Below are positions 17,117 through 58,478 of a stretch of DNA of 64,000 nucleotides, piece after piece. The DNA lies in IMG/VR virus record IMGVR_UViG_2595698455_000001, positions 32,001 through 96,000 of that record. One strand, 5' to 3'. The translations under genes were made by a program, and so were the position numbers. The notes beneath the pieces are model-generated. The model searched no databases. It was not told the origin of the DNA and saw only the letters and a list, made by a program, of their open reading frames with translations. The stretch is from a virus. Lineage: Duplodnaviria; Caudoviricetes. Position 1 is the stretch's first letter; the number at the start of each line of letters is the position of its first letter.

Positions 17117-20100
17117 TCAGACGATACAGGAGTCGCAACCAGGTTCTTCAGCCTGCTTCAACTCTTCGTCTTCCTTGGCGTCCTTGTTCGTGTTGTAATA
17201 CAGAGTCTTGCCGCCCCACATATAGAAGGACAGGATATCCTGCATCATCTTGGCACGAGGGATCTTGCCGTCTGGGTACTTCTCAGGATCATACCACGTG
17301 TTGGTGCTGATGGACTGATCTACCCAGCGCTGGATAACAGCGGCAGTCTTCAGGTACTCGATGCATTCCAGATCCCACTTGAGGTCATACAGCGGTCCAA
17401 GGGTCTCAACATCCGGAACAACCTGCTTGTACGCCCCGTCCTTGCTGCCCTTGACACTGACCAAGCCCTTCGGTGGCTCAATACCGTTCGTTGCGTTGAG
17501 GACTTGTGAGGAGCTTTCGGTAGGGGCTACTGCCAGCAGAGTGGCATTGCGGATACCATAGGTCTTCAGGTCATCCTTCAACTCATCCCAGTCCAGTCCA
17601 TATGCCATCCCTTCCGGCTTCTTACCATTTGGCAGGATATCGAGCGGGAGCGGCTGAAGATCGGCGGTGACCTGCCCCATACCATGGATCGTTCCGCGTT
17701 TGCATGCGCCGAACTTCATTGCCAGACGGTTGGAAGCCTTGACCAGATAGTAGTGCAGGTGTGCCATCCACGCATCCAACATCTCAAGGCCAGCTGGTGA
17801 GCCGTAGCCCGTGAAGTTCTTGGCCAGGAAGTGGGCCACGTTCACGATGCCGATACCCAGAGGACGATAATCCTCAACAGCCTTGCGTGCCTGGATAGCT
17901 GGATAGTCCTGATATTCGAGCAGCATGTCCAATGCCGACACCAGAACGAACGCCACATCCTCCATCTCCGTCGGGTCTTCGAACGCCGTGAGGTTGAAGG
18001 AAGCCAGAGTACACAGAGCCACACGACCACTTTCATCATCGTACTGCTGGAACTCACGGGTCGGCAGCGCAATCTCCAGACAGTTATGCACCAATATGCC
18101 TTCACTACTCATAGGGTCGTCATTGGTCACGATGAAGAAGTTGTGGTTGTCATCAACTGTCAGATCATATACATCCTCTACGCCAGCAGGGGTAATAGAA
18201 ACGACAGTAGGGTCTTCCATAGGCGCTTCACGAGAAACGTTTGAAACAACCAACTTCTCTTTGTGCTCAAATGGTTCAATGGTTCTGGCTCCGACTTCCA
18301 GCATATTCGTGAGGTTGGAGAACTTACCACCAAACCGGTTTTTGCTAAAAGAGTTCGGCATGGATGGCGATTTCTTAACCATTCTCGGTAAAGTGACCAT
18401 TTCCCCATTGTCCTTCATTTCCCAAGCAAGATCAAGGATGTCTTGGTTGCTCATACCCTTGAATTTAGGGTTTCTTTCCATAGAAGTGCGCACAGAGCAG
18501 TTATGTACAGCACGGGCTTTGTCTGCTTTCACAGCAGGGTTACTTGGATTACCTACCCCAGACATAGAAGCCGATTTCTTAGCGAAATTGTCTTCCGCTG
18601 GAATAGAACGGAGATTGCCAATTTCATCTAGGACAACAGCGTCATCAACGATATGATCAATATGATTACCAGGATCCAGAGGGCCATCGTAAAACTCATA
18701 GATCATTCTGTGTTGGTTTGACAATCCGTTGCTGACGCTATTGATGCGTCTATATTTGTTCTCAGACATCGTGGTGTAGAAACCTTTCAGTTTCTGTCCA
18801 ACCGCATGCCGCGCTTCGACGTATGGATAATCACCACGGGCGTCGGAAAGTGCCAGTGGATGGTCTGGTGTGCAGCGGAATGTCTGGCCGTTGCTCAATA
18901 GTACTTCTACAACTTCACGCACCCCAGTCTTGGCGGCCTTGGCCATCTTGATTTCAGTCACCCATCCACCGTCATTCTTTTTAGAAGGACGAGCAGAATA
19001 TACAGGGAACTTCTTATCATAACTAGACCAATCGGCCAATTCTTTGATACTCACCATGTTACGACCATCAGCGGCAGCCACCATGGTATCACCCGTAAAG
19101 CACAGGTTGGAGCTGTATATCGTGTCAAGGTTGAATGGGCTGTACTGGTTCATATGATCTACAAACGCGATGTAGATGCGTCCTGTATCCGAACGCTGGT
19201 CTAACAGCATCTGGAAGACTTCTTCGGCCTGCAACTTCTTGGCACGACAGATACCTGCGTCGGCGGCTTTGATCATGTTCTCGTACAGGACACGGAACTT
19301 GTCAACGTCGGCGAAGTAAGCCTCATACATGTCAGGATTGTCTTTCGGGTCGAACAGATACAGAGGCTGCTTGGCAACCAGGCGCTCAAACATCACGCGG
19401 TTGATCTGAATACCGTAGTCGATGCGACGTTCGCGGTTCTCTTCTGTTCCACGGTTGTTCTTCAGGACAACGACGTCATCGAACTGGTAGTGCCACAGGG
19501 GGATGTACCCTGTCGCTGCACCGCCGCGAATGCCGCCCTGAGAGCACGACTTGAGCGCCCCAGTGAGATACTTGATGAACGGGATCAGGCCTGTGTGAAC
19601 CATCTCTCCGCCGCGAATAGGACTACCAATACCACGGATTGCCCCGAAGTCGAAACCGATACCAGCGCGTTTTGACACATAGTCAACGATGGTCTTGGCC
19701 GTTGCGTTGATAGAGTCCAGGGTGTCACCAGTCTTGATCAACACACATGAGCTGAACTGACGGGTAGGAGTACGAACACCGGCCATGATCGGGGTTGGAA
19801 GACTGAACTTGCCTGTGCTGGCATATTCATAGAACTTCTTCACCATTTCCAGGCGGCTGTCTTTGTCCCAGTTGGAGAACAACGCCATGGCGATGCCCAT
19901 GTACATAACCTGTGGTGTTTCGTAGAAGACCTTGCCATCTTTCCTGGAACGGTCACGCAGCAGATACTTCTCAGTCAGCTGACCCATGGCCGCCCATGTG
20001 AAGTTCTTGTCGCGTTTGTGGTTGATGACATCGTTCAGTTCGTTGAACTCTTCGGTCGTGTAGAGGTCGAGGAACTCACGGTCATACACACGACGTTTGA

Positions 20101-20419
20101 TGTTGTTGACAAAGATATCCAGCAGGTGAGGTGGCTTGTACTGACCGTAGACAGCCTTACGCAGATCATATGACTTCAGGCGAGCAGCCACATACTGGTA
20201 ATTGGGTTTGTCTACAGAGATCAGTGAAGCCGCAGCCTGGATGAGGATATCCTGAATGCGATCTGTTCTCATGTTGTCTGTGAACTGAATCTTCGATGCA
20301 GAGATCACCTCTGACATTGATACACCAGCCAGTCCGTCACATGCGCGGTCTACGACTGCGTGTAGTTTCTCAATATCAAAGGGGACAGAAGATCCGTCCC
20401 GCTTAATGACGTTAATCAT
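17117..20419 (-). CDS. nrdA: ribonucleotide reductase class Ia alpha subunit, intein-containing
   Basis: ATP cone (VIKRDG), PTPIMAG, QFSSC, SNL[intein]CLEI, APTESSS and C-terminal CDSC. Confidence 0.95.
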   Translation of the reverse strand: MINVIKRDGSSVPFDIEKLHAVVDRACDGLAGVSMSEVISASKIQFTDNMRTDRIQDILIQAAASLISVDKPNYQYVAARLKSYDLRKAVYGQYKPPHLLDIFVNNIKRRVYDREFLDLYTTEEFNELNDVINHKRDKNFTWAAMGQLTEKYLLRDRSRKDGKVFYETPQVMYMGIAMALFSNWDKDSRLEMVKKFYEYASTGKFSLPTPIMAGVRTPTRQFSSCVLIKTGDTLDSINATAKTIVDYVSKRAGIGFDFGAIRGIGSPIRGGEMVHTGLIPFIKYLTGALKSCSQGGIRGGAATGYIPLWHYQFDDVVVLKNNRGTEENRERRIDYGIQINRVMFERLVAKQPLYLFDPKDNPDMYEAYFADVDKFRVLYENMIKAADAGICRAKKLQAEEVFQMLLDQRSDTGRIYIAFVDHMNQYSPFNLDTIYSSNLCFTGDTMVAAADGRNMVSIKELADWSSYDKKFPVYSARPSKKNDGGWVTEIKMAKAAKTGVREVVEVLLSNGQTFRCTPDHPLALSDARGDYPYVEARHAVGQKLKGFYTTMSENKYRRINSVSNGLSNQHRMIYEFYDGPLDPGNHIDHIVDDAVVLDEIGNLRSIPAEDNFAKKSASMSGVGNPSNPAVKADKARAVHNCSVRTSMERNPKFKGMSNQDILDLAWEMKDNGEMVTLPRMVKKSPSMPNSFSKNRFGGKFSNLTNMLEVGARTIEPFEHKEKLVVSNVSREAPMEDPTVVSITPAGVEDVYDLTVDDNHNFFIVTNDDPMSSEGILVHNCLEIALPTREFQQYDDESGRVALCTLASFNLTAFEDPTEMEDVAFVLVSALDMLLEYQDYPAIQARKAVEDYRPLGIGIVNVAHFLAKNFTGYGSPAGLEMLDAWMAHLHYYLVKASNRLAMKFGACKRGTIHGMGQVTADLQPLPLDILPNGKKPEGMAYGLDWDELKDDLKTYGIRNATLLAVAPTESSSQVLNATNGIEPPKGLVSVKGSKDGAYKQVVPDVETLGPLYDLKWDLECIEYLKTAAVIQRWVDQSISTNTWYDPEKYPDGKIPRAKMMQDILSFYMWGGKTLYYNTNKDAKEDEELKQAEEPGCDSCIV
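18083..19102 (-). mobile_element. 340-aa intein with an HNH-type endonuclease domain
   Basis: Block A CFTGDT, block B CTPDHP, block F VYDLTVDDNHNF, terminal HN followed by extein C; internal HRMIY...HIDHI...NL motif. Confidence 0.92.
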
Positions 20420-20452
20420 AGCGATCCTCGGTTTGTGTTATAAGCAGGTTTT

Positions 20453-54740: not shown

Positions 54741-55118
54741 ATGAAACAGTTCGTAGGATTATATGCGGTCGGATGCAGTAAGCCAGACGCCATCCTCACC
54801 GCAGGGCAGTTCGTTACAGGCACACCAGTCTACCTTGCTCAGCTGGCGTCAGACAAGAACTTACCATCGGAGCCACGATTTGTCCCTCTGGGTTTGATGA
54901 CAGGCCTGAAAGTTGGTCTGTATGTCGGTGTCGTGACGTTTGAAAACGGTATCGAAGCGAAGGTGCTGCCATTCAAATTGGGTAGCGAACAAATGCTGAA
55001 GGACACGATCAGTGAACACCTGAACGCACAGTGTCTGGCTTCTCTGGACAAATTGTTCGGTGCGGCGGACGAAGAAGGCGAGGCAACCCCCGCCTATGTG
55101 AACCAAGATCAATCGTGA
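54741..55118 (+). CDS. hypothetical protein
   Basis: 125-aa ORF with GAG SD. Confidence 0.65.
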   Translation: MKQFVGLYAVGCSKPDAILTAGQFVTGTPVYLAQLASDKNLPSEPRFVPLGLMTGLKVGLYVGVVTFENGIEAKVLPFKLGSEQMLKDTISEHLNAQCLASLDKLFGAADEEGEATPAYVNQDQS

Positions 55119-55438
55119 TTACCCAGCGCCACCTTCATGAACTCCACGGGGTGGCGCTCCGTCAGGTAGAACTTGTAACGCTCATGAGAGTGCCTGATAG
55201 CGTGGTTCGTGCTTGCGTTGTACGACACATCATCCACTAAATCCCATATCCATGCGACGTCCTTAGAGGAGTGCTGACGCATCAGACGACCCAGTGTCTG
55301 TATGACGCGGATATACGACTTGCTCGGGTGCGCCAGAACAAGGTGATGCAGCTTCTTCCAAGATATCCCGGTGCTGAAAGTTCCGTATGTGGCAAGCACC
55401 GTGATATCTTCCGCCTTATTAATTTTAGTCGGTTTCAT
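55109..55438 (-). CDS. uvsW: UvsW helicase, C-terminal fragment
   Basis: ATYGTFSTGIS (motif V), QTLGRLMR (motif VI) and WDLVDD; own ATG with AGGGGTAGGA leader. Confidence 0.88.
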   Translation of the reverse strand: MKPTKINKAEDITVLATYGTFSTGISWKKLHHLVLAHPSKSYIRVIQTLGRLMRQHSSKDVAWIWDLVDDVSYNASTNHAIRHSHERYKFYLTERHPVEFMKVALGNHD

Positions 55439-56382
55439 TTCCTACCCCTGTTGGATGCTAGTTTTCCTTCTACCCACCCAACAGGAATTTCATTGGGGTG
55501 TATGAATTTACTATTTAAACCGTTGTTGTACCATCTCCAGCCTTGTGACAGTTTCAGGAGTTTTGTTTCTTCTCTCTTCTTTTTGATGTCTTCTTTATTC
55601 TCCCACATAGTTTTGCTGGCTTTACTTCTTGTTTCTTTGAACTCTGTGGTGGACATGGCCTCTTGTCTCTTAGTGTTCACCAGTTCCACATACTCTGGGT
55701 CTTTCCATAAATTTATCGCACGTTCTTTGTGTTTGGCAACGGTGACGCCAGTGGAATTGGACTCTCGCAAACCATTGATCATCCTTTCTCTAATTTCGGG
55801 GTCTTTCCAGTTTCCCTTGGATATTTGCGAGAAACGTTCCTTTGCTTCTGCCGTGTTGGCTCTCGCTATCAAAATAGACCTTAACTTTTCACCCACCTCC
55901 GTGTTCCACATACTCACAAAGAATTTTGACCAACGTCGGCGTTCATATGGGCTAGAACGTTTCTCCTTTGAAATGGAACCCATCATCTTCCTGTATTCCG
56001 GGTCCTCCCAAAGAGCTTTCATAAGAGAAGACTTTATTGCCCGGTTGTTCTGGATGGTTGTTTGGTCTTCATATCCAAACTCCGACATCAAGACATAAGC
56101 CATTACAGCCGCCCTTGTGCGTGTGGCTTTTGCCAATATCTTGTGAGCTATGAAATGTGCTCTTGGTGACAACAGTGCCAAGTTCCAGGTATGAATGCTT
56201 AGATTTTTGAATTGTGGAAAATCCTTCGCTTGGAGAATATGGTGACGTTCTTTTGTATCACCAACTGCCTGGAAATTTCGGACAAAATTGATATACCTGT
56301 TCACCCAAAATTCATCGGATTTTGGGAGCGCCAACAAGTATTCTCTGATCTTTTTGTCGTTGTTTAATCCAGTTGTCATCAA
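55435..56382 (-). mobile_element. HNH homing endonuclease inserted in uvsW
   Basis: ERHHIL...NL..L..RAHFIAH, W(K/E)DPE repeats, WYNNG...GWVEG C-terminus; AT-rich. Confidence 0.85.
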
Positions 56383-57703
56383 CGTCGTCCTCTTCAGTTA
56401 CGAACATGGCTACTTTGGTTTCCCCATTCGACAACAGAACCTTTTCGTTGTCACCAACCATTATTGATATGTTACCAAACTCCAATGTTATTATCTTTTC
56501 CGACTCTATTAAACTACCTATCTTAAGTCTGTCTTCCACAGCGACATCCCCGTTGATGACAAACACATTGGGCTTGACAGCGCTCAGCATCTCATACACG
56601 ACCATCATGTGGGCGTCGATACGCTCGAACATGATCGCCACGTTCCCTTTCAGGTTAATAGCCATCTTGGCTATCAGTTCGTTGCGGGATTGGTGTGTGA
56701 TGAGATACTCTATTTCCTTGGCGTAATCCCCGTCCAGACCGACAGCATCCGCTGAAGTGTGCTTCAGCTGGATCATCTTCACCTTGATGTCGGTGGCATA
56801 CCCAAGGTTGATAAGGTCGCGAGCCGTGATGATCTTGTGGTACGCCCCGAAGTGGGCTACAACCTGCAGCCCTGCGACCTTCGTGTTTGCCAGAGTACCC
56901 GTAACGCCCAGACGCTGGTCGGCATAGATGCAGTTGTTCAGGATGTAGGACAGCTTCTCAGACTTGGAGGTGTGCACTTCATCCACCACGATATCACCGA
57001 ACTGGTGGAACCACTCCTTCGGCTGATCCTGAATCCCCTGCCACGTACTGATGACGATTGGCTTACTGATCTGTTTGGTCGCACCTTCAAAGATCAGCTG
57101 AGTATTGACAACAGGCTTCCAATCACTGCCATGTGCGTACTCTTCAAAGTTGTCGTACAGCTGAGTAACCAGGTGAATCGACGGCACCACGATAAGCGTC
57201 CTCAGATTGCTTTCGAGAGCTTCTCTGCGCTGCCTGTAGTACCGCGCCATGACGTACAGAACAAAGGACTTACCAGCACTCGTGGCCAGTTCACAGACGC
57301 ATCTGGTTTGGCGCATAGCCTTGGCGATCGTATCGAACTGGTAATCACGGGTTTCGGCGTCGATGTACTCGTGATTTTCGGTGCGGATCTTTGGATGCAG
57401 GCTGTTGATAAATTCACGGATCTCTTCATCAGGGATGTCCTGGATGTACTTCAGAGCCGGATCCAGTTCGATGGTGTATTTGTTGTTCTTACAGAACTTG
57501 AACACCTCGAACAGAAGTCCGATATCGATCAGGCCGGAAGATTTGGTGAACAAGCGAACAACCCCGTCCCATTTAGAGAAGGGGTTGGGAACGAAGTTTG
57601 GATCTTCAAATTTGAAGTAGTCATTCAGCTCTTCCCTGATAGAAAGATCTGCGATGCAACGCATGCGGACTTCGTTAACCTTAACAATCTGAATGTCTGC
57701 CAT
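56312..57703 (-). CDS. uvsW: UvsW helicase, N-terminal fragment with a foreign C-terminal tail
   Basis: RDYQ, TSAGKS, DEVH and GVTGT motifs; helicase-like sequence ends near VINGDVAVEDR. Confidence 0.9.
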   Translation of the reverse strand: MADIQIVKVNEVRMRCIADLSIREELNDYFKFEDPNFVPNPFSKWDGVVRLFTKSSGLIDIGLLFEVFKFCKNNKYTIELDPALKYIQDIPDEEIREFINSLHPKIRTENHEYIDAETRDYQFDTIAKAMRQTRCVCELATSAGKSFVLYVMARYYRQRREALESNLRTLIVVPSIHLVTQLYDNFEEYAHGSDWKPVVNTQLIFEGATKQISKPIVISTWQGIQDQPKEWFHQFGDIVVDEVHTSKSEKLSYILNNCIYADQRLGVTGTLANTKVAGLQVVAHFGAYHKIITARDLINLGYATDIKVKMIQLKHTSADAVGLDGDYAKEIEYLITHQSRNELIAKMAINLKGNVAIMFERIDAHMMVVYEMLSAVKPNVFVINGDVAVEDRLKIGSLIESEKIITLEFGNISIMVGDNEKVLLSNGETKVAMFVTEEDDVDDNWIKQRQKDQRILVGAPKIR

Positions 57704-57731
57704 ACAAAATCTCCCAAGATATATGGGATAT

Positions 57732-58478
57732 TTAGCGGTTCTCCCAGACTCCGTTCTGTTCTTTGTCCATTCGATGATACAGTCGAACGCGCTCAAACAT
57801 CTTTGTCAGGATGTCGTCACGATTGAACTCAATGACAGTGGGTAGAGGAGAAGACTCGTTGGCGATTACATTGATGAGGCGGGTGATCTTGACACCGAAC
57901 ATCTGCTGGAACATGACCGAATATAAGCACAGCTGGATACTGTAATCCTCGATCATTCCCCGCGTCTTCATGATGTTCGATGTCTTGAAGTCGATGATGG
58001 CAGGCTTGCCCTCATAAACCCCGATAAGGTCCACTCGACCTGCGAGACCAAGCACCTCGCTATATAATGGGATCTCCTGAGCATAGATCTTGGTCATCTT
58101 GTTCAGATAGGGGAACAGCTGCTTGAACATGAACATGTATTCGCCAGCCGCTTCCAAAACTTCTTTCATTGGGCGGTTCTTCAAATACAATTCACATGCA
58201 AGATGCAGCTTCTCCCCACGATCCGCGCAACGCATGGTCTCAAGGTCGGCGGCCTCCGTGCCCAGCTTCTCCCTCCAAGCATCAAGCCATTCATGGTCAC
58301 CAGTTCGCCCCAGCATAGTCGTGACAGACGTCAGCTTGACACCAGTTGGTGACACATAATGACGACCGTTCTCCGTCGTCACACACTCCAGTTCCTTATG
58401 AGGAAGTTCGTACTGCTGGAATGTGTAATGACGATTTTCGAAGTCGTTCAGCTTGCGTAGAGCCTGGAGAGATGCCAT
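57732..58478 (-). CDS. PD-(D/E)XK exonuclease
   Basis: SVTTML, RGEKLH, AGRVDL, IIDFKTS and QLCLY motifs. Confidence 0.85.
   Translation of the reverse strand: MASLQALRKLNDFENRHYTFQQYELPHKELECVTTENGRHYVSPTGVKLTSVTTMLGRTGDHEWLDAWREKLGTEAADLETMRCADRGEKLHLACELYLKNRPMKEVLEAAGEYMFMFKQLFPYLNKMTKIYAQEIPLYSEVLGLAGRVDLIGVYEGKPAIIDFKTSNIMKTRGMIEDYSIQLCLYSVMFQQMFGVKITRLINVIANESSPLPTVIEFNRDDILTKMFERVRLYHRMDKEQNGVWENR

What the first reader, a model, noticed from the sequence alone, without database searches (positions are those of the whole stretch)
55109..57703. uvsW split by an HNH endonuclease, with a degenerate split-intein-like pair at the new ends
Seen: the helicase is in two ORFs, with motifs I-IV in 57703-56312 and motifs V-VI in 55438-55109. 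The gap is entirely coding: the HNH ORF overlaps the N-fragment by about 70 bp and is ATGA-coupled to the C-fragment, which has its own SD. That leaves no non-coding space for a group I intron core. The N-fragment carries an AT-rich tail of about 60 aa (KIITLEFGNISIMVGDNEKVLLSNGETKVAMFVTEEDDV). It parallels the block-B region of Hint domains, as in this window's NrdA intein (VVEVLLSNGQTFRCTPDHPLALS), but has no Cys1/Ser1 block A and no TxxH. The C-fragment starts MKPTKINK, like the basic first strand of split-intein C-halves, but has no HN-C/S/T junction. Known: fractured genes with split inteins flanking an endonuclease exist, as does the non-spliced split nrdA of phage Aeh1. Inference: the element carries a non-splicing, intein-derived docking module that lets an interrupted helicase assemble as a heterodimer.
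Basis: partly seen in the sequence, partly recalled or inferred. Interest (0 to 1): 0.88.

Follow-up and report, generated by a model that had tools for sequence, protein, structure and literature searches.

The report
Split phage helicase with intein-like tail
A phage repair helicase gene is cut in two by an imported DNA cassette that carries a homing endonuclease and a short, conserved, intein-like tail, which probably lets the two protein halves rejoin without being spliced.

Summary
uvsW is in two ORFs, 463 aa and 109 aa, with a 314-aa HNH endonuclease gene between them. The HNH gene overlaps the first ORF and is ATGA-coupled to the second.

Close relatives (Agtrevirus, 90-93% identical) have an unsplit uvsW. 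The roughly 1.2-1.3 kb between the fragments is foreign: GC is 0.42 against 0.51-0.54 in the flanks. A related metagenome contig carries the same cassette at about 2.6% divergence, while its flanks differ by about 16%.

The tail is not chance sequence. A profile of it finds 61 clusters of UvsW N-fragments, always at the C-terminus. They come from T4-like and Ackermannviridae-like phages. The junction holds an HNH gene, a GIY-YIG-type gene or no endonuclease. So the endonuclease did not create the tail.

The tail folds confidently on its own. Of the 39 structural matches with Z of at least 2, 27 are inteins or Hint domains, including the top 16, but all Z values are below 5. Sequence profile tests find no Hint signal. 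The catalytic intein residues are absent across the family.

Best reading (0.6): a decayed, non-splicing "fractured gene" whose half-Hint tail docks the fragments. Docking itself is untested.

In many related loci the C-fragment is also interrupted at motif V, which is unexplained.

The parts
56312..57703 (-). uvsW N-fragment CDS (463 aa plus stop): UvsW N-domain, RecA1, first half of RecA2 (motifs I-IV), then the added tail
   Evidence: ORF. Pfam UvsW_N, ResIII and DEAD. AF2 model has mean pLDDT 87. Best PDB matches are T4 UvsW 2oca and 1rif.
56549..57703 (-). native helicase body, ending at VFVING
   Evidence: 326 of 355 bases are identical to phage EspM4VN over 56546-56900.
56498..56548 (-). 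start of the foreign tract: a diverged but homologous uvsW helix (DVAVEDRLKIGSLIESE)
   Evidence: The DNA alignment diverges from relatives here. The protein still aligns to VKIEDRRRIQKAMEDGE of unsplit UvsW.
56366..56497 (-). conserved Hint-like tail (KIITLEFGNISIMVGDNEKVLLSNGETKVAMFVTEEDDVDDNWI)
   Evidence: The profile finds 61 clusters, always at the C-terminus. AF2 on the tail alone gives pLDDT 87-92 over residues 11-50. The VIA wide search returns 27 Hint proteins among 39 rows. ESM neighbours are Hint families.
56315..56365 (-). 17-aa C-terminal extension (KQRQKDQRILVGAPKIR) that reads into the 5' end of the HNH gene
   Evidence: Other family members stop at a median of 5 aa after the WI motif. 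pLDDT is 51 for residues 451-460 and 30 for 461-463, and below 50 for 458-463.
55435..56379 (-). free-standing HNH homing endonuclease gene (314 aa from the ATG at 56379; a TTG lies at 56382), MobD-like with repeated WKDPE motifs
   Evidence: PHROG matches are phrog_10820 (E 3.7e-108), phrog_655 and phrog_12434. tblastn gives 24-31% identity to annotated MobD or homing endonucleases. Pfam has no HNH hit.
55109..55438 (-). uvsW C-fragment CDS (109 aa plus stop): motifs V and VI, second half of RecA2
   Evidence: ORF. It matches phrog_17901 over 1-109 of 109 positions, E 1e-77.
55412..55438 (-). added head MKPTKINKA, with a start codon ATGA-coupled to the HNH stop
   Evidence: Sequence. The head MKP(T/S/D/N)(K/E)(V/I), or MAKP, recurs in 15 lineage representatives.
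55349..55411 (-). donor-derived motif V tract (EDITVLATYGTFSTGISWKKL) replacing the Agtrevirus version (EDITLLASYGTMQQGVSIKKL)
   Evidence: Only 38-40 of 66 bases are identical to relatives here, against 235 of 240 just downstream.
55341..56656 (.). approximate extent of the mobile cassette, as bounded by comparison with a related metagenome contig
   Evidence: In one search the X2/X3 contig piece 55071-56656 has 72 differences, of which 38 of the first 40 listed lie at 55112-55340. The piece 56760-57716 has 157 differences in 957 bases.

Best explanation
This is a "fractured" uvsW gene.

Origin (shown). A cassette of about 1.2-1.3 kb was imported into an Agtrevirus-like phage whose relatives have an intact uvsW. 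The import was most likely endonuclease-driven gene conversion from a diverged donor.

Contents of the cassette, in order:
- a short stretch of donor uvsW;
- a 44-aa conserved tail that ends the N-fragment;
- a free-standing HNH homing endonuclease gene;
- a 9-aa head (MKPTKINKA) that starts the C-fragment;
- donor motif V sequence.

Tail and head are older than the endonuclease (shown). They form an old, conserved junction found in many split uvsW genes of T4-like and Ackermannviridae-like phages. Different endonuclease genes (HNH or GIY-YIG type) come and go at that junction.

Nature of the tail (moderately supported). It is most likely the surviving block-B half of the N-piece of a split intein. 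The catalytic residues have been lost.

Function (inferred). The fragments are not spliced. The acidic, autonomously folding half-Hint tail captures the head of the C-fragment. The two halves of the RecA2 domain then reassemble into a working 53 + 13 kDa heterodimeric helicase.
For: 1. Foreign origin.
- None of 171 matching phage records covers the insert; the best cover 62%.
- Ag3 has an annotated 502-aa unsplit UvsW; the EspM4VN record annotates its uvsW from an internal start.
- DNA identity to EspM4VN is 326/355 upstream and 235/240 downstream, but only 38/66 in the motif V tract. GC is 0.42 against 0.51/0.54.
- A 26-kb metagenome contig (X2/X3) carries the same cassette. It has 72 differences over 55071-56656, of which 38 of the first 40 listed lie in 55112-55340. 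It has 157 differences in 957 bases of the N body.

2. A conserved module.
- The tail profile against 1.84 billion representatives gives 65 hits at E<=1e-3. After dropping 4 repeat proteins, 61 remain.
- In 59 of 61 the motif ends 1-28 aa (median 5) before the stop.
- All 20 N-fragments of at least 390 aa end 3-18 aa after it.
- 38 of 61 also match the UvsW body; the rest are short pieces.
- dN/dS of the tail is 0.08-0.28 in the one clade with enough divergence.

3. The junction is independent of the endonuclease.
- Vibrio phage D506 has the tail ATGA-coupled to MKPTKVV with no endonuclease.
- Of 39 loci, 26 have an endonuclease-sized gap and 9 have a gap of 270 nt or less.
- HNH families occupy the window and 7 tested loci; a GIY-YIG type occupies 3.
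- A filled site (L096) and empty sites (L094, L099) differ only by the endonuclease.
- Deletion remnants of endonucleases occur in L112 and L106.

4. Hint likeness.
- AF2 on the tail alone gives mean pLDDT 81.7.
- The VIA search of 48,161 chains gives 39 rows with Z>=2. The top 16 are all inteins or Hint, and 27 of 39 are Hint superfamily. The tail aligns to residues of about 45-100 of mini-inteins, for example Npu DnaE 48-98 and MchDnaB-1 45-88 (rmsd 1.8 over 43 residues).
- The only low-rmsd Foldseek rows are inteins.
- ESM features of two tails that are 35-37% identical both point to Hint, Intein_splicing and PT-HINT clusters, scores 0.76-0.84.

5. No route to splicing.
- No Rfam intron is found.
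- No nucleophile is conserved after FG, and there is no TxxH and no HN junction in the family alignment.

6. The split state persists under selection.
- C-parts downstream have dN/dS 0.10-0.17 with saturated dS.
Against: - All structural Z values are below 5, and only about 50 of roughly 135 Hint residues are covered. The tool warns that a Z under 8 can be a common arrangement. Foldseek has no match at E<=0.001.
- Sequence methods see no Hint signal. Pfam finds none on 17 tails at E<=10. hhalign of the tail profile against this window's NrdA intein gives probability 1.25% over 14 columns. hmmsearch against PDB sequences finds only T4 UvsW, through the helicase part.
- ESM scores are under 0.9, which the tool calls a lead only.
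- There is no room for the first Hint lobe. The head is only about 9 aa, against about 35 aa for a normal IntC.
- No contiguous or catalytically intact intein was found at this site: 0 of 61 tails are internal.
- Docking is not shown. The charge anticorrelation between tail strand 2 and the head is Spearman -0.76 for 17 loci. It falls to -0.55 (p 0.06) for 12 lineage representatives and to -0.40 without one clade.
- Heads of the MKPDEV class are not basic.
- In 24 of 35 loci with C-side data the head ORF is separated from motif V by a stop or a frame change. The simple two-piece model does not predict this.
Confidence: 0.6

Rival explanations
1. The tail is a conserved docking or stabilising extension, but it is not derived from an intein. 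On this reading its small beta-meander only resembles half a Hint domain by convergence.
For: All Z values are below 5, and unrelated rows (BRK and Cap5 domains) reach Z 2.8-2.9. No sequence-profile signal is seen. Foldseek finds nothing significant. No intact intein relative was found at the site.
Against: 27 of 39 rows and the whole top 16 are Hint proteins, out of 48,161 chains. Two divergent tails independently draw Hint families by language-model features. The endonuclease sits where inteins and fractured genes carry theirs (PMC2677866, passages read).
Confidence: 0.2
2. The tail has nothing to do with joining the fragments. The two RecA2 halves reassemble through their native interface, as in the non-spliced split NrdA of phage Aeh1. 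The tail would serve another role, such as capping the exposed half-domain or binding DNA or another replication protein through its acidic DDDVxDxWI end.
For: Split genes without docking modules work, for example Aeh1 nrdA/mobE as cited in PMC2988022. The tail is strongly acidic, with a mean net charge of -4.2 over 40 aa across 56 tails. Acid-plus-aromatic ends are a known partner-binding theme (recalled). The tail/head charge covariation is weak after lineage correction.
Against: The tail is found only on split N-fragments and never on the unsplit UvsW proteins examined. All 61 tails are terminal, and the complete ORFs among 80 viral loci are unsplit and tail-less. This ties the tail to the split itself.
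Confidence: 0.12
3. The split uvsW is a dead or dying gene in this phage, and the conserved features only reflect recent spread of the cassette.
For: In T4, uvsW is not strictly essential (recalled). The cassette is recent in this lineage. Many related loci carry stops or frame changes at motif V.
Against: Both fragments are intact in every member of the enterobacterial clade that was seen: 8 N-fragment clusters of 463 aa and 3 C-fragment clusters of 109 aa. 20 of 20 long N-fragments across a family with only about 30% identity remain open. dN/dS is 0.08-0.28 for the tail and 0.10-0.17 for the C-parts.
Confidence: 0.05
4. The halves are rejoined covalently, either by RNA splicing (a group I intron with an endonuclease ORF) or by an unusual protein trans-splicing reaction.
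For: Phage genes interrupted by endonuclease-bearing introns and inteins are common. This genome has an NrdA intein at 18083-19102.
Against: No Rfam intron is found even at E<=10. The whole gap is coding, with overlapping ORFs. The junction exists with a -4 nt gap in Vibrio phage D506. No Cys/Ser1, TxxH, HN or +1 nucleophile is present.
Confidence: 0.03

Closest known systems
Fractured genes: split inteins flanking a free-standing homing endonuclease (Dassa et al. 2009, PMC2677866; abstract and passages read)
   Same: A conserved phage DNA-metabolism gene is broken in two at one locus. The order is N-part with an intein-like tail, a free-standing endonuclease ORF, then C-part with a head. ORFs overlap. 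Variants that have lost the endonuclease exist; their locus gp41-7 corresponds to D506, L090 and L094 here. GIY-YIG genes are among the occupants.
   Different: Only about 44 + 9 aa remain, instead of about 90-100 + 35-40 aa. There is no Cys/Ser1, no TxxH, no HN and no +1 nucleophile, so trans-splicing is not expected. UvsW is not among the host enzymes named in the passage read (gp41, IMPDH, DnaE, NrdA, NrdJ, ligase, terminase). HNH endonucleases occur here, whereas they reported GIY-YIG and Vsr-like genes.
Non-spliced genes-in-pieces: nrdA of Aeromonas phage Aeh1 split by mobE (Friedrich et al. 2007, as cited in PMC2988022, passage read)
   Same: An HNH homing endonuclease gene lies inside a critical region of a conserved gene, and the fragments are thought to work without splicing.
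   Different: No conserved, transferable peptide module at the new ends is known for Aeh1 NrdA (recalled, not checked). Here the module is shared by at least 61 clusters and persists without the endonuclease.
T4 mobA with the gene 60 translational bypass cassette (mentioned in PMC2988022; mechanism recalled)
   Same: An endonuclease travels together with a sequence that lets the interrupted host gene stay functional.
   Different: The compensating element there is a 50-nt ribosomal hop, and here it is a protein tail and head. However, related loci here do carry 1-11 nt interruptions at motif V that would need recoding.
Natural split inteins of phage replication genes (gp41-1, NrdJ-1, Aes123 PolB1; PDB 6riz, 8ubs, 9hth; PMC11923092 seen in the listing)
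   Same: These are among the structural matches of the tail. They occur in T4-like phages.
   Different: They are complete and catalytically active. The tail matches only their middle part, with Z 2.2-3.8.
T4 SegE, a free-standing GIY-YIG endonuclease that targets uvsW (Table in PMC2988022)
   Same: It shows that uvsW is a known target of homing endonucleases.
   Different: SegE lies beside uvsW, not inside it, and T4 uvsW is not split at motif V.

Membership tests
UvsW-type SF2 helicase | UvsW N-domain plus two RecA-like domains carrying motifs I-VI | tested here: met
   Pfam finds UvsW_N, ResIII and DEAD. The alignment to the 502-aa Ag3 UvsW shows 84-87% identity across the two fragments. 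The model matches 2oca (E 4e-25) and 1rif. The motifs are divided between the two ORFs.
Intein / Hint superfamily | Hint fold | tested here: inconclusive
   The tail model aligns only to the middle part of Hint domains, about 43-54 residues. 27 of 39 rows are Hint proteins, including the top 16, but Z is at most 4.8. Foldseek E values are at least 1. ESM neighbours are Hint families at 0.76-0.84.
Intein / Hint superfamily | Sequence-profile match to Hint or intein families | tested here: not met
   Pfam finds no Hint family on 17 tails at E<=10, nor on the whole N-fragment at E<=0.1. hhalign against the window's NrdA intein gives probability 1.25%.
Splicing-competent (split) intein | Block A nucleophile (Cys/Ser1) at the extein-intein junction | tested here: not met
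   The helicase runs directly into the tail. The residue after FG is N, D, E or K across the family, and a Cys occurs later in only some members.
Splicing-competent (split) intein | Block B TxxH | tested here: not met
   The loop between tail strands 2 and 3 reads GDNE, NNDS, EPDE, DHND and similar. No Thr or His is conserved there. The motif definition is recalled.
Splicing-competent (split) intein | Block G His-Asn followed by a Cys/Ser/Thr +1 residue | tested here: not met
   The C-fragment begins MKPTKINKAEDITVL with no HN. The heads of 15 lineage representatives lack it too.
Fractured gene (Dassa et al. 2009) | A conserved enzyme gene broken in two at one locus with a free-standing endonuclease between the parts | tested here: met
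Fractured gene (Dassa et al. 2009) | A functional split intein at the new termini | tested here: not met
   See the three catalytic rows above.
HNH homing endonuclease (T4 Mob-like) | HNH nuclease motif and homology to known free-standing phage endonucleases | tested here: met
   PHROG matches are phrog_10820 (E 3.7e-108), phrog_655 (homing endonuclease, E 2.6e-13) and phrog_12434 (HNH, E 2.8e-10). tblastn hits MobD-like genes. The ERHHIL...N...H motif is seen by eye. Pfam HNH models do not match.
HNH homing endonuclease (T4 Mob-like) | Site-specific cleavage of the endonuclease-less allele | not testable with these tools
   Only indirect evidence exists: the co-converted flanks and the cassette being 2.6% against 16% diverged.
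Group I intron with endonuclease ORF | Conserved catalytic RNA core | tested here: not met
   Rfam cmscan with the evalue threshold over 54900-57000 finds no intron family.

The most novel reading that the evidence does not exclude
The tail and head form a portable "split-and-dock" junction, a half-Hint relic that homing endonucleases carry between phage families. On this reading gene fission itself spreads horizontally.

In most lineages the same cassette also carries a 1-11 nt interruption at the motif V codons ASY|GTFSTG. The forms seen are TTT-C, TAY-TGA-S, TAG-TGA and TCG-TGA. The interruption would protect the locus from endonuclease cleavage. It would be read through by programmed +1 frameshifting or bypass, or it would make a three-piece helicase with an 18-25 aa micro-protein.
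Probability: 0.3. Interest if true: 0.9.

Novelty: new variant of a known kind. Interest (0 to 1): 0.75.

Why it matters
It would be a natural case in which an intein has lost splicing but kept fragment association. A selfish element would have become a non-covalent assembly tag for an interrupted enzyme.

It also shows that the break point is heritable and transferable apart from the endonuclease. The endonuclease can move the break into an intact gene of another phage lineage.

A 44-aa acidic tail plus a 9-aa head is small enough to be of interest as a minimal, cysteine-free heterodimerisation pair.

The motif V interruptions in related loci, if they are recoded, would add new frameshift or bypass sites linked to homing endonucleases, a parallel to T4 gene 60.

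Tried and rejected
**Tail as a shrunken duplicate of the RecA2 C-half.** MAFFT and an hmmsearch alignment to 2oca suggested this. hhalign of the tail profile against the C-part profile gave probability 0.1%, so I rejected it.

**Group I intron.** No Rfam hit.

**Promoter and terminator scan of 54900-57900.** It found no more than the shuffles did.

**A second tail copy in the genome.** Searching the genome with the tail profile found only the uvsW site.

**RNA evidence.** No RNA holder was listed, so splicing could not be checked with reads.

**Word-based homology searches.** The search for homologous proteins on the tail and on the C-fragment found only close relatives, 8 and 3 clusters, because of its shared-word requirement.

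**Pfam on the endonucleases.** There were no HNH hits. PHROGs was used instead.

**Literature.** Searches for uvsW with split, intein or homing endonuclease, and for Ackermannviridae split helicase, found no description of this arrangement. The library is partial and supplements were closed.

**Complex prediction.** There is therefore no verdict on docking.

**Charge covariation.** It is suggestive only. In that script the anchor for L090 was misplaced.

Full report
**1. The observation**

On the minus strand, one search lists three ORFs:
- 56312..57796. From the ATG at 57703 this is a 463-aa protein beginning MADIQ.
- 55435..56382, 315 aa from a TTG or 314 aa from the ATG at 56379.
- 55109..55438, 109 aa beginning MKPTKINK.

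The middle ORF overlaps the first by 71 nt. Its stop overlaps the third ORF's start as ATGA, with AGGA 4 nt upstream.

Pfam finds UvsW_N, ResIII and DEAD in the first ORF, and a weak Helicase_C match in the third. PHROGs calls both ORFs DNA helicase. The third ORF matches a 109-position family end to end (phrog_17901, E 1e-77). PHROGs calls the middle ORF an HNH or homing endonuclease (phrog_10820 at E 3.7e-108, plus phrog_655 and phrog_12434).

Motifs I-III and VFVING lie in the first ORF, and motifs V and VI in the third. Rfam at permissive thresholds finds no intron. The description is therefore correct.

One refinement is needed. The 17 residues after VFVING (DVAVEDRLKIGSLIESE) still align with unsplit UvsW. 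The added tail is therefore KIITLEF...DDNWI (56366-56497), followed by a 17-aa extension that runs into the HNH gene.

**2. The phage and the insert**

The region is 90-93% identical to Agtrevirus phages (EspM4VN, Ag3, SKML-39 and others). None of the 171 matching phage records covers more than about 62% of the query, because they lack the middle part. Ag3 annotates a 502-aa unsplit UvsW.

The DNA alignment and segment identities show:
- 326/355 identity to EspM4VN upstream of 56546;
- 235/240 identity downstream of 55349;
- only 38/66 identity in the motif V tract (55349-55414).

GC is 0.42 in the insert, against 0.51 and 0.54 in the flanks. In the motif V tract the donor's ATYGTFSTGISW replaces the Agtrevirus ASYGTMQQGVSI.

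A 26,265-base metagenome contig (runs X2/X3, which look like one data set filed twice) carries the same arrangement.
- Over 55071-56656 it has 72 differences. Of the first 40 listed, 38 lie at 55112-55340 and 2 lie at 55455 and 55503. This leaves about 2.6% divergence across the cassette.
- Over 56760-57716 it has 157 differences in 957 bases, about 16%.

The cassette is thus much younger than the genomes that hold it. Its C-side edge (about 55340) coincides with the edge seen against the unsplit relatives. This is the pattern expected from endonuclease-driven gene conversion with co-conversion of flanks. The cleavage itself was not tested.

**3. The tail is an old, conserved module, separate from the endonuclease**

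tblastn with the tail hits 58 Vibrio phage records at 45% identity. I inspected one, D506. Its helicase is also split (452 + 135 aa). The tail is homologous (…KIGLHFGDSEIEVYFDEDVPLNDGTTKKAFDITEDDDVCDKWIEERL) and the head is the same (MKPTKVV…). There is no endonuclease, and the two ORFs overlap as ATGA.

Scans of IMG/VR found 6 + 31 further loci.

A four-sequence tail profile searched against 1.84 billion representative proteins gave 65 hits at E<=1e-3. I dropped four long repeat proteins (P0019, P0062, P0068, P0069), leaving 61.
- In 59 of the 61, a motif search places the end of the tail 1-28 aa (median 5) before the stop.
- The other two (P0067, P0070) end about 7 and about 20 aa after it by eye.
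- All 20 proteins of at least 390 aa are UvsW N-fragments that stop 3-18 aa after the motif.
- 38 of the 61 also match the UvsW body. The remaining 23 are short pieces.
- No tail lies inside a full-length helicase.

Conversely, the 80 best viral loci with a UvsW C-part were examined. All 62 that are not cut by the contig's 5' end, except L054, have one long ORF of 483-606 aa. L054 has a 147-aa ORF that I did not examine further. The split is therefore a minority state.

The family consensus is hhLxFGxxxIxVxxxxxVxL(S/T)NGxxKxAKDITxxDD(V/I)xDxWI.

In the one clade with enough divergence (L092, L101, L110, L112, L117; dS 0.28-0.65), the tail has dN/dS 0.08-0.28. Three very close pairs gave 0.45-1.9 on 3-10 changes and say little.

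**4. Endonucleases come and go at the junction**

The set is 39 loci: the window, D506 and 37 IMG/VR loci.
- 26 have an endonuclease-sized gap of 724-1107 nt.
- 9 have a gap from -20 to 269 nt.
- 4 end before the C-side.

PHROGs assigns the gap ORFs as follows:
- HNH families (phrog_655 and phrog_12434) in the window and in 7 of 10 tested loci;
- a GIY-YIG-type family (phrog_314) in 3 of 10 (L096, L009, L101).

L112 and L106 keep only remnants of an HNH gene.

L096 (filled) and L094/L099 (empty) are identical over the 130 nt downstream. They differ only by an insert of about 710 nt placed between the …NWI codons and the ribosome-binding site of the head ORF.

The junction with its tail and head exists on its own, and endonucleases use it as a landing site. 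In this phage the whole package arrived together.

**5. What the tail is**

AF2 on the N-fragment (33-sequence alignment) gives mean pLDDT 87. Residues 401-450 score 79-91 and form four short strands and a helix. The model matches T4 UvsW.

The tail alone (67 aa, 38-sequence alignment) folds with mean pLDDT 81.7, and 87-92 over residues 11-50.

I aligned this model to one representative of each of 48,161 PDB sequence clusters. This gave 39 rows with Z>=2.
- The top 16 are all inteins or the hedgehog Hint domain. They include PI-PfuI (Z 4.8), Npu DnaE residues 48-98 (Z 4.4), VidaL (4.4), Pho PolII (4.2; rmsd 2.2 over 46 residues), MchDnaB-1 (4.0; rmsd 1.8 over 43), KlbA, NrdJ-1, DnaX and gp41-1.
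- 27 of the 39 rows belong to the Hint superfamily.
- The aligned part is the middle of the Hint domain, which holds block B.

Foldseek finds nothing at E<=0.001. Its only low-rmsd rows are the Mtu RecA and VidaL inteins (rmsd 1.1-1.4 over 38-39 columns; probability 0.44-0.47).

Language-model features were tested on the window's tail and on a tail that is 35-37% identical (L092). Both have Hint_2, Intein_splicing, PT-HINT and Hint clusters as their nearest named neighbours, with scores of 0.76-0.84. The tool rates scores under 0.9 as leads only.

Against this:
- Pfam sees no Hint family in 17 tails at E<=10.
- hmmsearch against PDB sequences returns only T4 UvsW, through the helicase part.
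- All Z values are in a range that the tool warns may be a common arrangement.

I rate Hint descent at about two in three.

The catalytic features of inteins (Cys/Ser1, TxxH, HN, a +1 nucleophile; motif definitions recalled) are absent in the window and across the family alignment. There is no room for the first Hint lobe. Splicing by the known chemistry is therefore not expected.

**6. How it probably works**

Shown:
- two intact, translationally coupled helicase fragments;
- a conserved, selected, autonomously folding tail found only on split N-fragments;
- a conserved head;
- long persistence of the split state.

Inferred: the tail holds the head of the C-fragment, so that the two halves of RecA2 reassemble into an active heterodimer. 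This would resemble the way the second half of IntN captures IntC in split inteins (mechanism recalled).

Indirect support is thin.
- The tail is acidic, with a mean net charge of -4.2 over 40 aa in 56 tails. Most heads are basic, but the MKPDEV class is not.
- In the MKPDEV clade the second tail strand has become KKKIK. That gives a charge anticorrelation of Spearman -0.76 over 17 loci. It is only -0.55 (p 0.06) over 12 lineage representatives, and -0.40 without that clade.

**7. An unexplained feature of relatives**

In 24 of the 35 loci with C-side data, the head ORF does not run on into motif V. I read the DNA of 14 of them. Every break lies within a few codons of …IIVAS(Y/F)GTF|STG.
- L090, L091, L118: an in-frame TAG TGA lies between ASY and GTFSTG.
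- L100, L105 group, L116, L119 group: TAY TGA is followed by the +1 frame.
- L094-L099 and L107/L113/L115: an extra C (ACN TTT C TCN ACN GG) means the frame must shift +1 after Phe.
- L004-L007: TCG TGA overlaps a GTG in the -1 frame.

In the TTT-C group, synonymous variation follows the head frame up to TTT and the +1 frame after it. The C-parts downstream are under strong purifying selection (dN/dS 0.10-0.17, dS saturated).

Clustering at one site across eight lineages argues against random decay. Possible readings are:
- resistance scars at the endonuclease target that are read through by frameshifting or bypass (compare T4 gene 60; recalled);
- a third, TTG- or GTG-initiated ORF that leaves an 18-25 aa micro-protein.

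I could not decide between these. The window itself, D506 and 9 other loci have an uninterrupted C-fragment.

**8. Comparison with known systems**

The closest described arrangement is the "fractured gene" of Dassa et al. 2009 (PMC2677866; abstract and passages read). There, a split intein flanks a free-standing endonuclease in phage-like DNA-metabolism genes, and one locus has lost the endonuclease. UvsW is not among their hosts, and their inteins are complete.

Non-spliced split genes are also known, for example Aeh1 nrdA/mobE and T4 39/60 with mobA. uvsW is a known target of T4 SegE (PMC2988022, passages read).

My searches found no paper on a split uvsW or on a natural splicing-dead split intein used for association. 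The library is partial and supplements were closed.

I file this as a new variant of a known kind.

**9. Earlier notes of this scan**

Another reading of the same genome had also noted that UvsW switches into AT-rich foreign sequence after VFVINGDVAVEDR (e1-6217383), which I confirm. Notes on an NrdA intein (e1-6217358) and on a split polymerase elsewhere in the genome (e1-6217378) gave context. The tail profile finds no second copy in the genome.

**10. Verdict**

"Non-splicing" and "intein-like tail" hold up moderately well. "The HNH split the gene" does not. "Docking" remains an inference.
- Confidence in the overall reading is 0.6, and interest is 0.75.

Noticed in passing
L090:3652-3727, L118:4501-4576, L100:4775-4850, L105:4620-4700, L094:895-990, L107:4530-4610, L004:4138-4230 (IMG/VR loci): In 24 of 35 split-uvsW loci with C-side data, the head ORF is cut off from motif V. 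The break is a stop or frame change at one spot (ASY|GTF|STG). The forms are TAG-TGA in frame, TAY-TGA then the +1 frame, an extra C after TTT, or TCG-TGA/GTG. The downstream C-part is still under purifying selection (dN/dS 0.10-0.17). This may be programmed frameshifting or bypass, a three-piece helicase, or endonuclease-resistance scars.
   Followed up: partly
L096:2380-3300 versus L099:3549-3770 and L094:804-1025; L112:3635-3841; L106:3647-3860: There is an endonuclease presence/absence polymorphism at the identical junction in near-identical backgrounds. Short deletion remnants of HNH genes also occur, consistent with a gain-and-decay cycle of homing endonucleases.
   Followed up: yes
window 18083-19102 (-), inside the NrdA ORF 17120-20437: A 340-aa intein lies in NrdA between …SSNL and CLEI…. 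It has a canonical start (CFTGDT…) and end (…GILVHN), and an HNH-like segment (HIDHIV…NLRSIPAEDN) in place of LAGLIDADG blocks. I used it only as a comparison sequence.
   Followed up: partly
window 55071-57716 versus the 26,265-base contig of runs X2/X3: A relative whose uvsW body and C-end differ by about 16% carries the cassette at about 2.6% divergence. It also has a replaced segment of about 105 nt at 56656-56760.
   Followed up: partly
proteins P0067 (789 aa), P0034 (587 aa), P0032 (516 aa), P0036 (395 aa): Some tail-bearing UvsW N-fragments have large extra inserts elsewhere in the helicase, for example about 390 aa between residues 89 and 479 of P0067. These may be further inteins or endonuclease insertions.
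   Followed up: no
L001:709-2216 (phage EspM4VN record LC373201.2): In this record uvsW is annotated from an internal start (452 aa), with a separate 57-aa ORF covering the N-terminus. In Ag3 the same region is one 502-aa gene. This looks like a frameshift or an annotation difference at the 5' end.
   Followed up: no
window genome outside the window (earlier notes e1-6217378, e1-6217381): Earlier first-reader notes report a DNA polymerase split by an antisense HNH gene and a TerL mini-intein next to a free-standing HNH gene. The genome seems unusually rich in endonuclease-associated gene interruptions. The uvsW-type tail is not present at those sites.
   Followed up: partly
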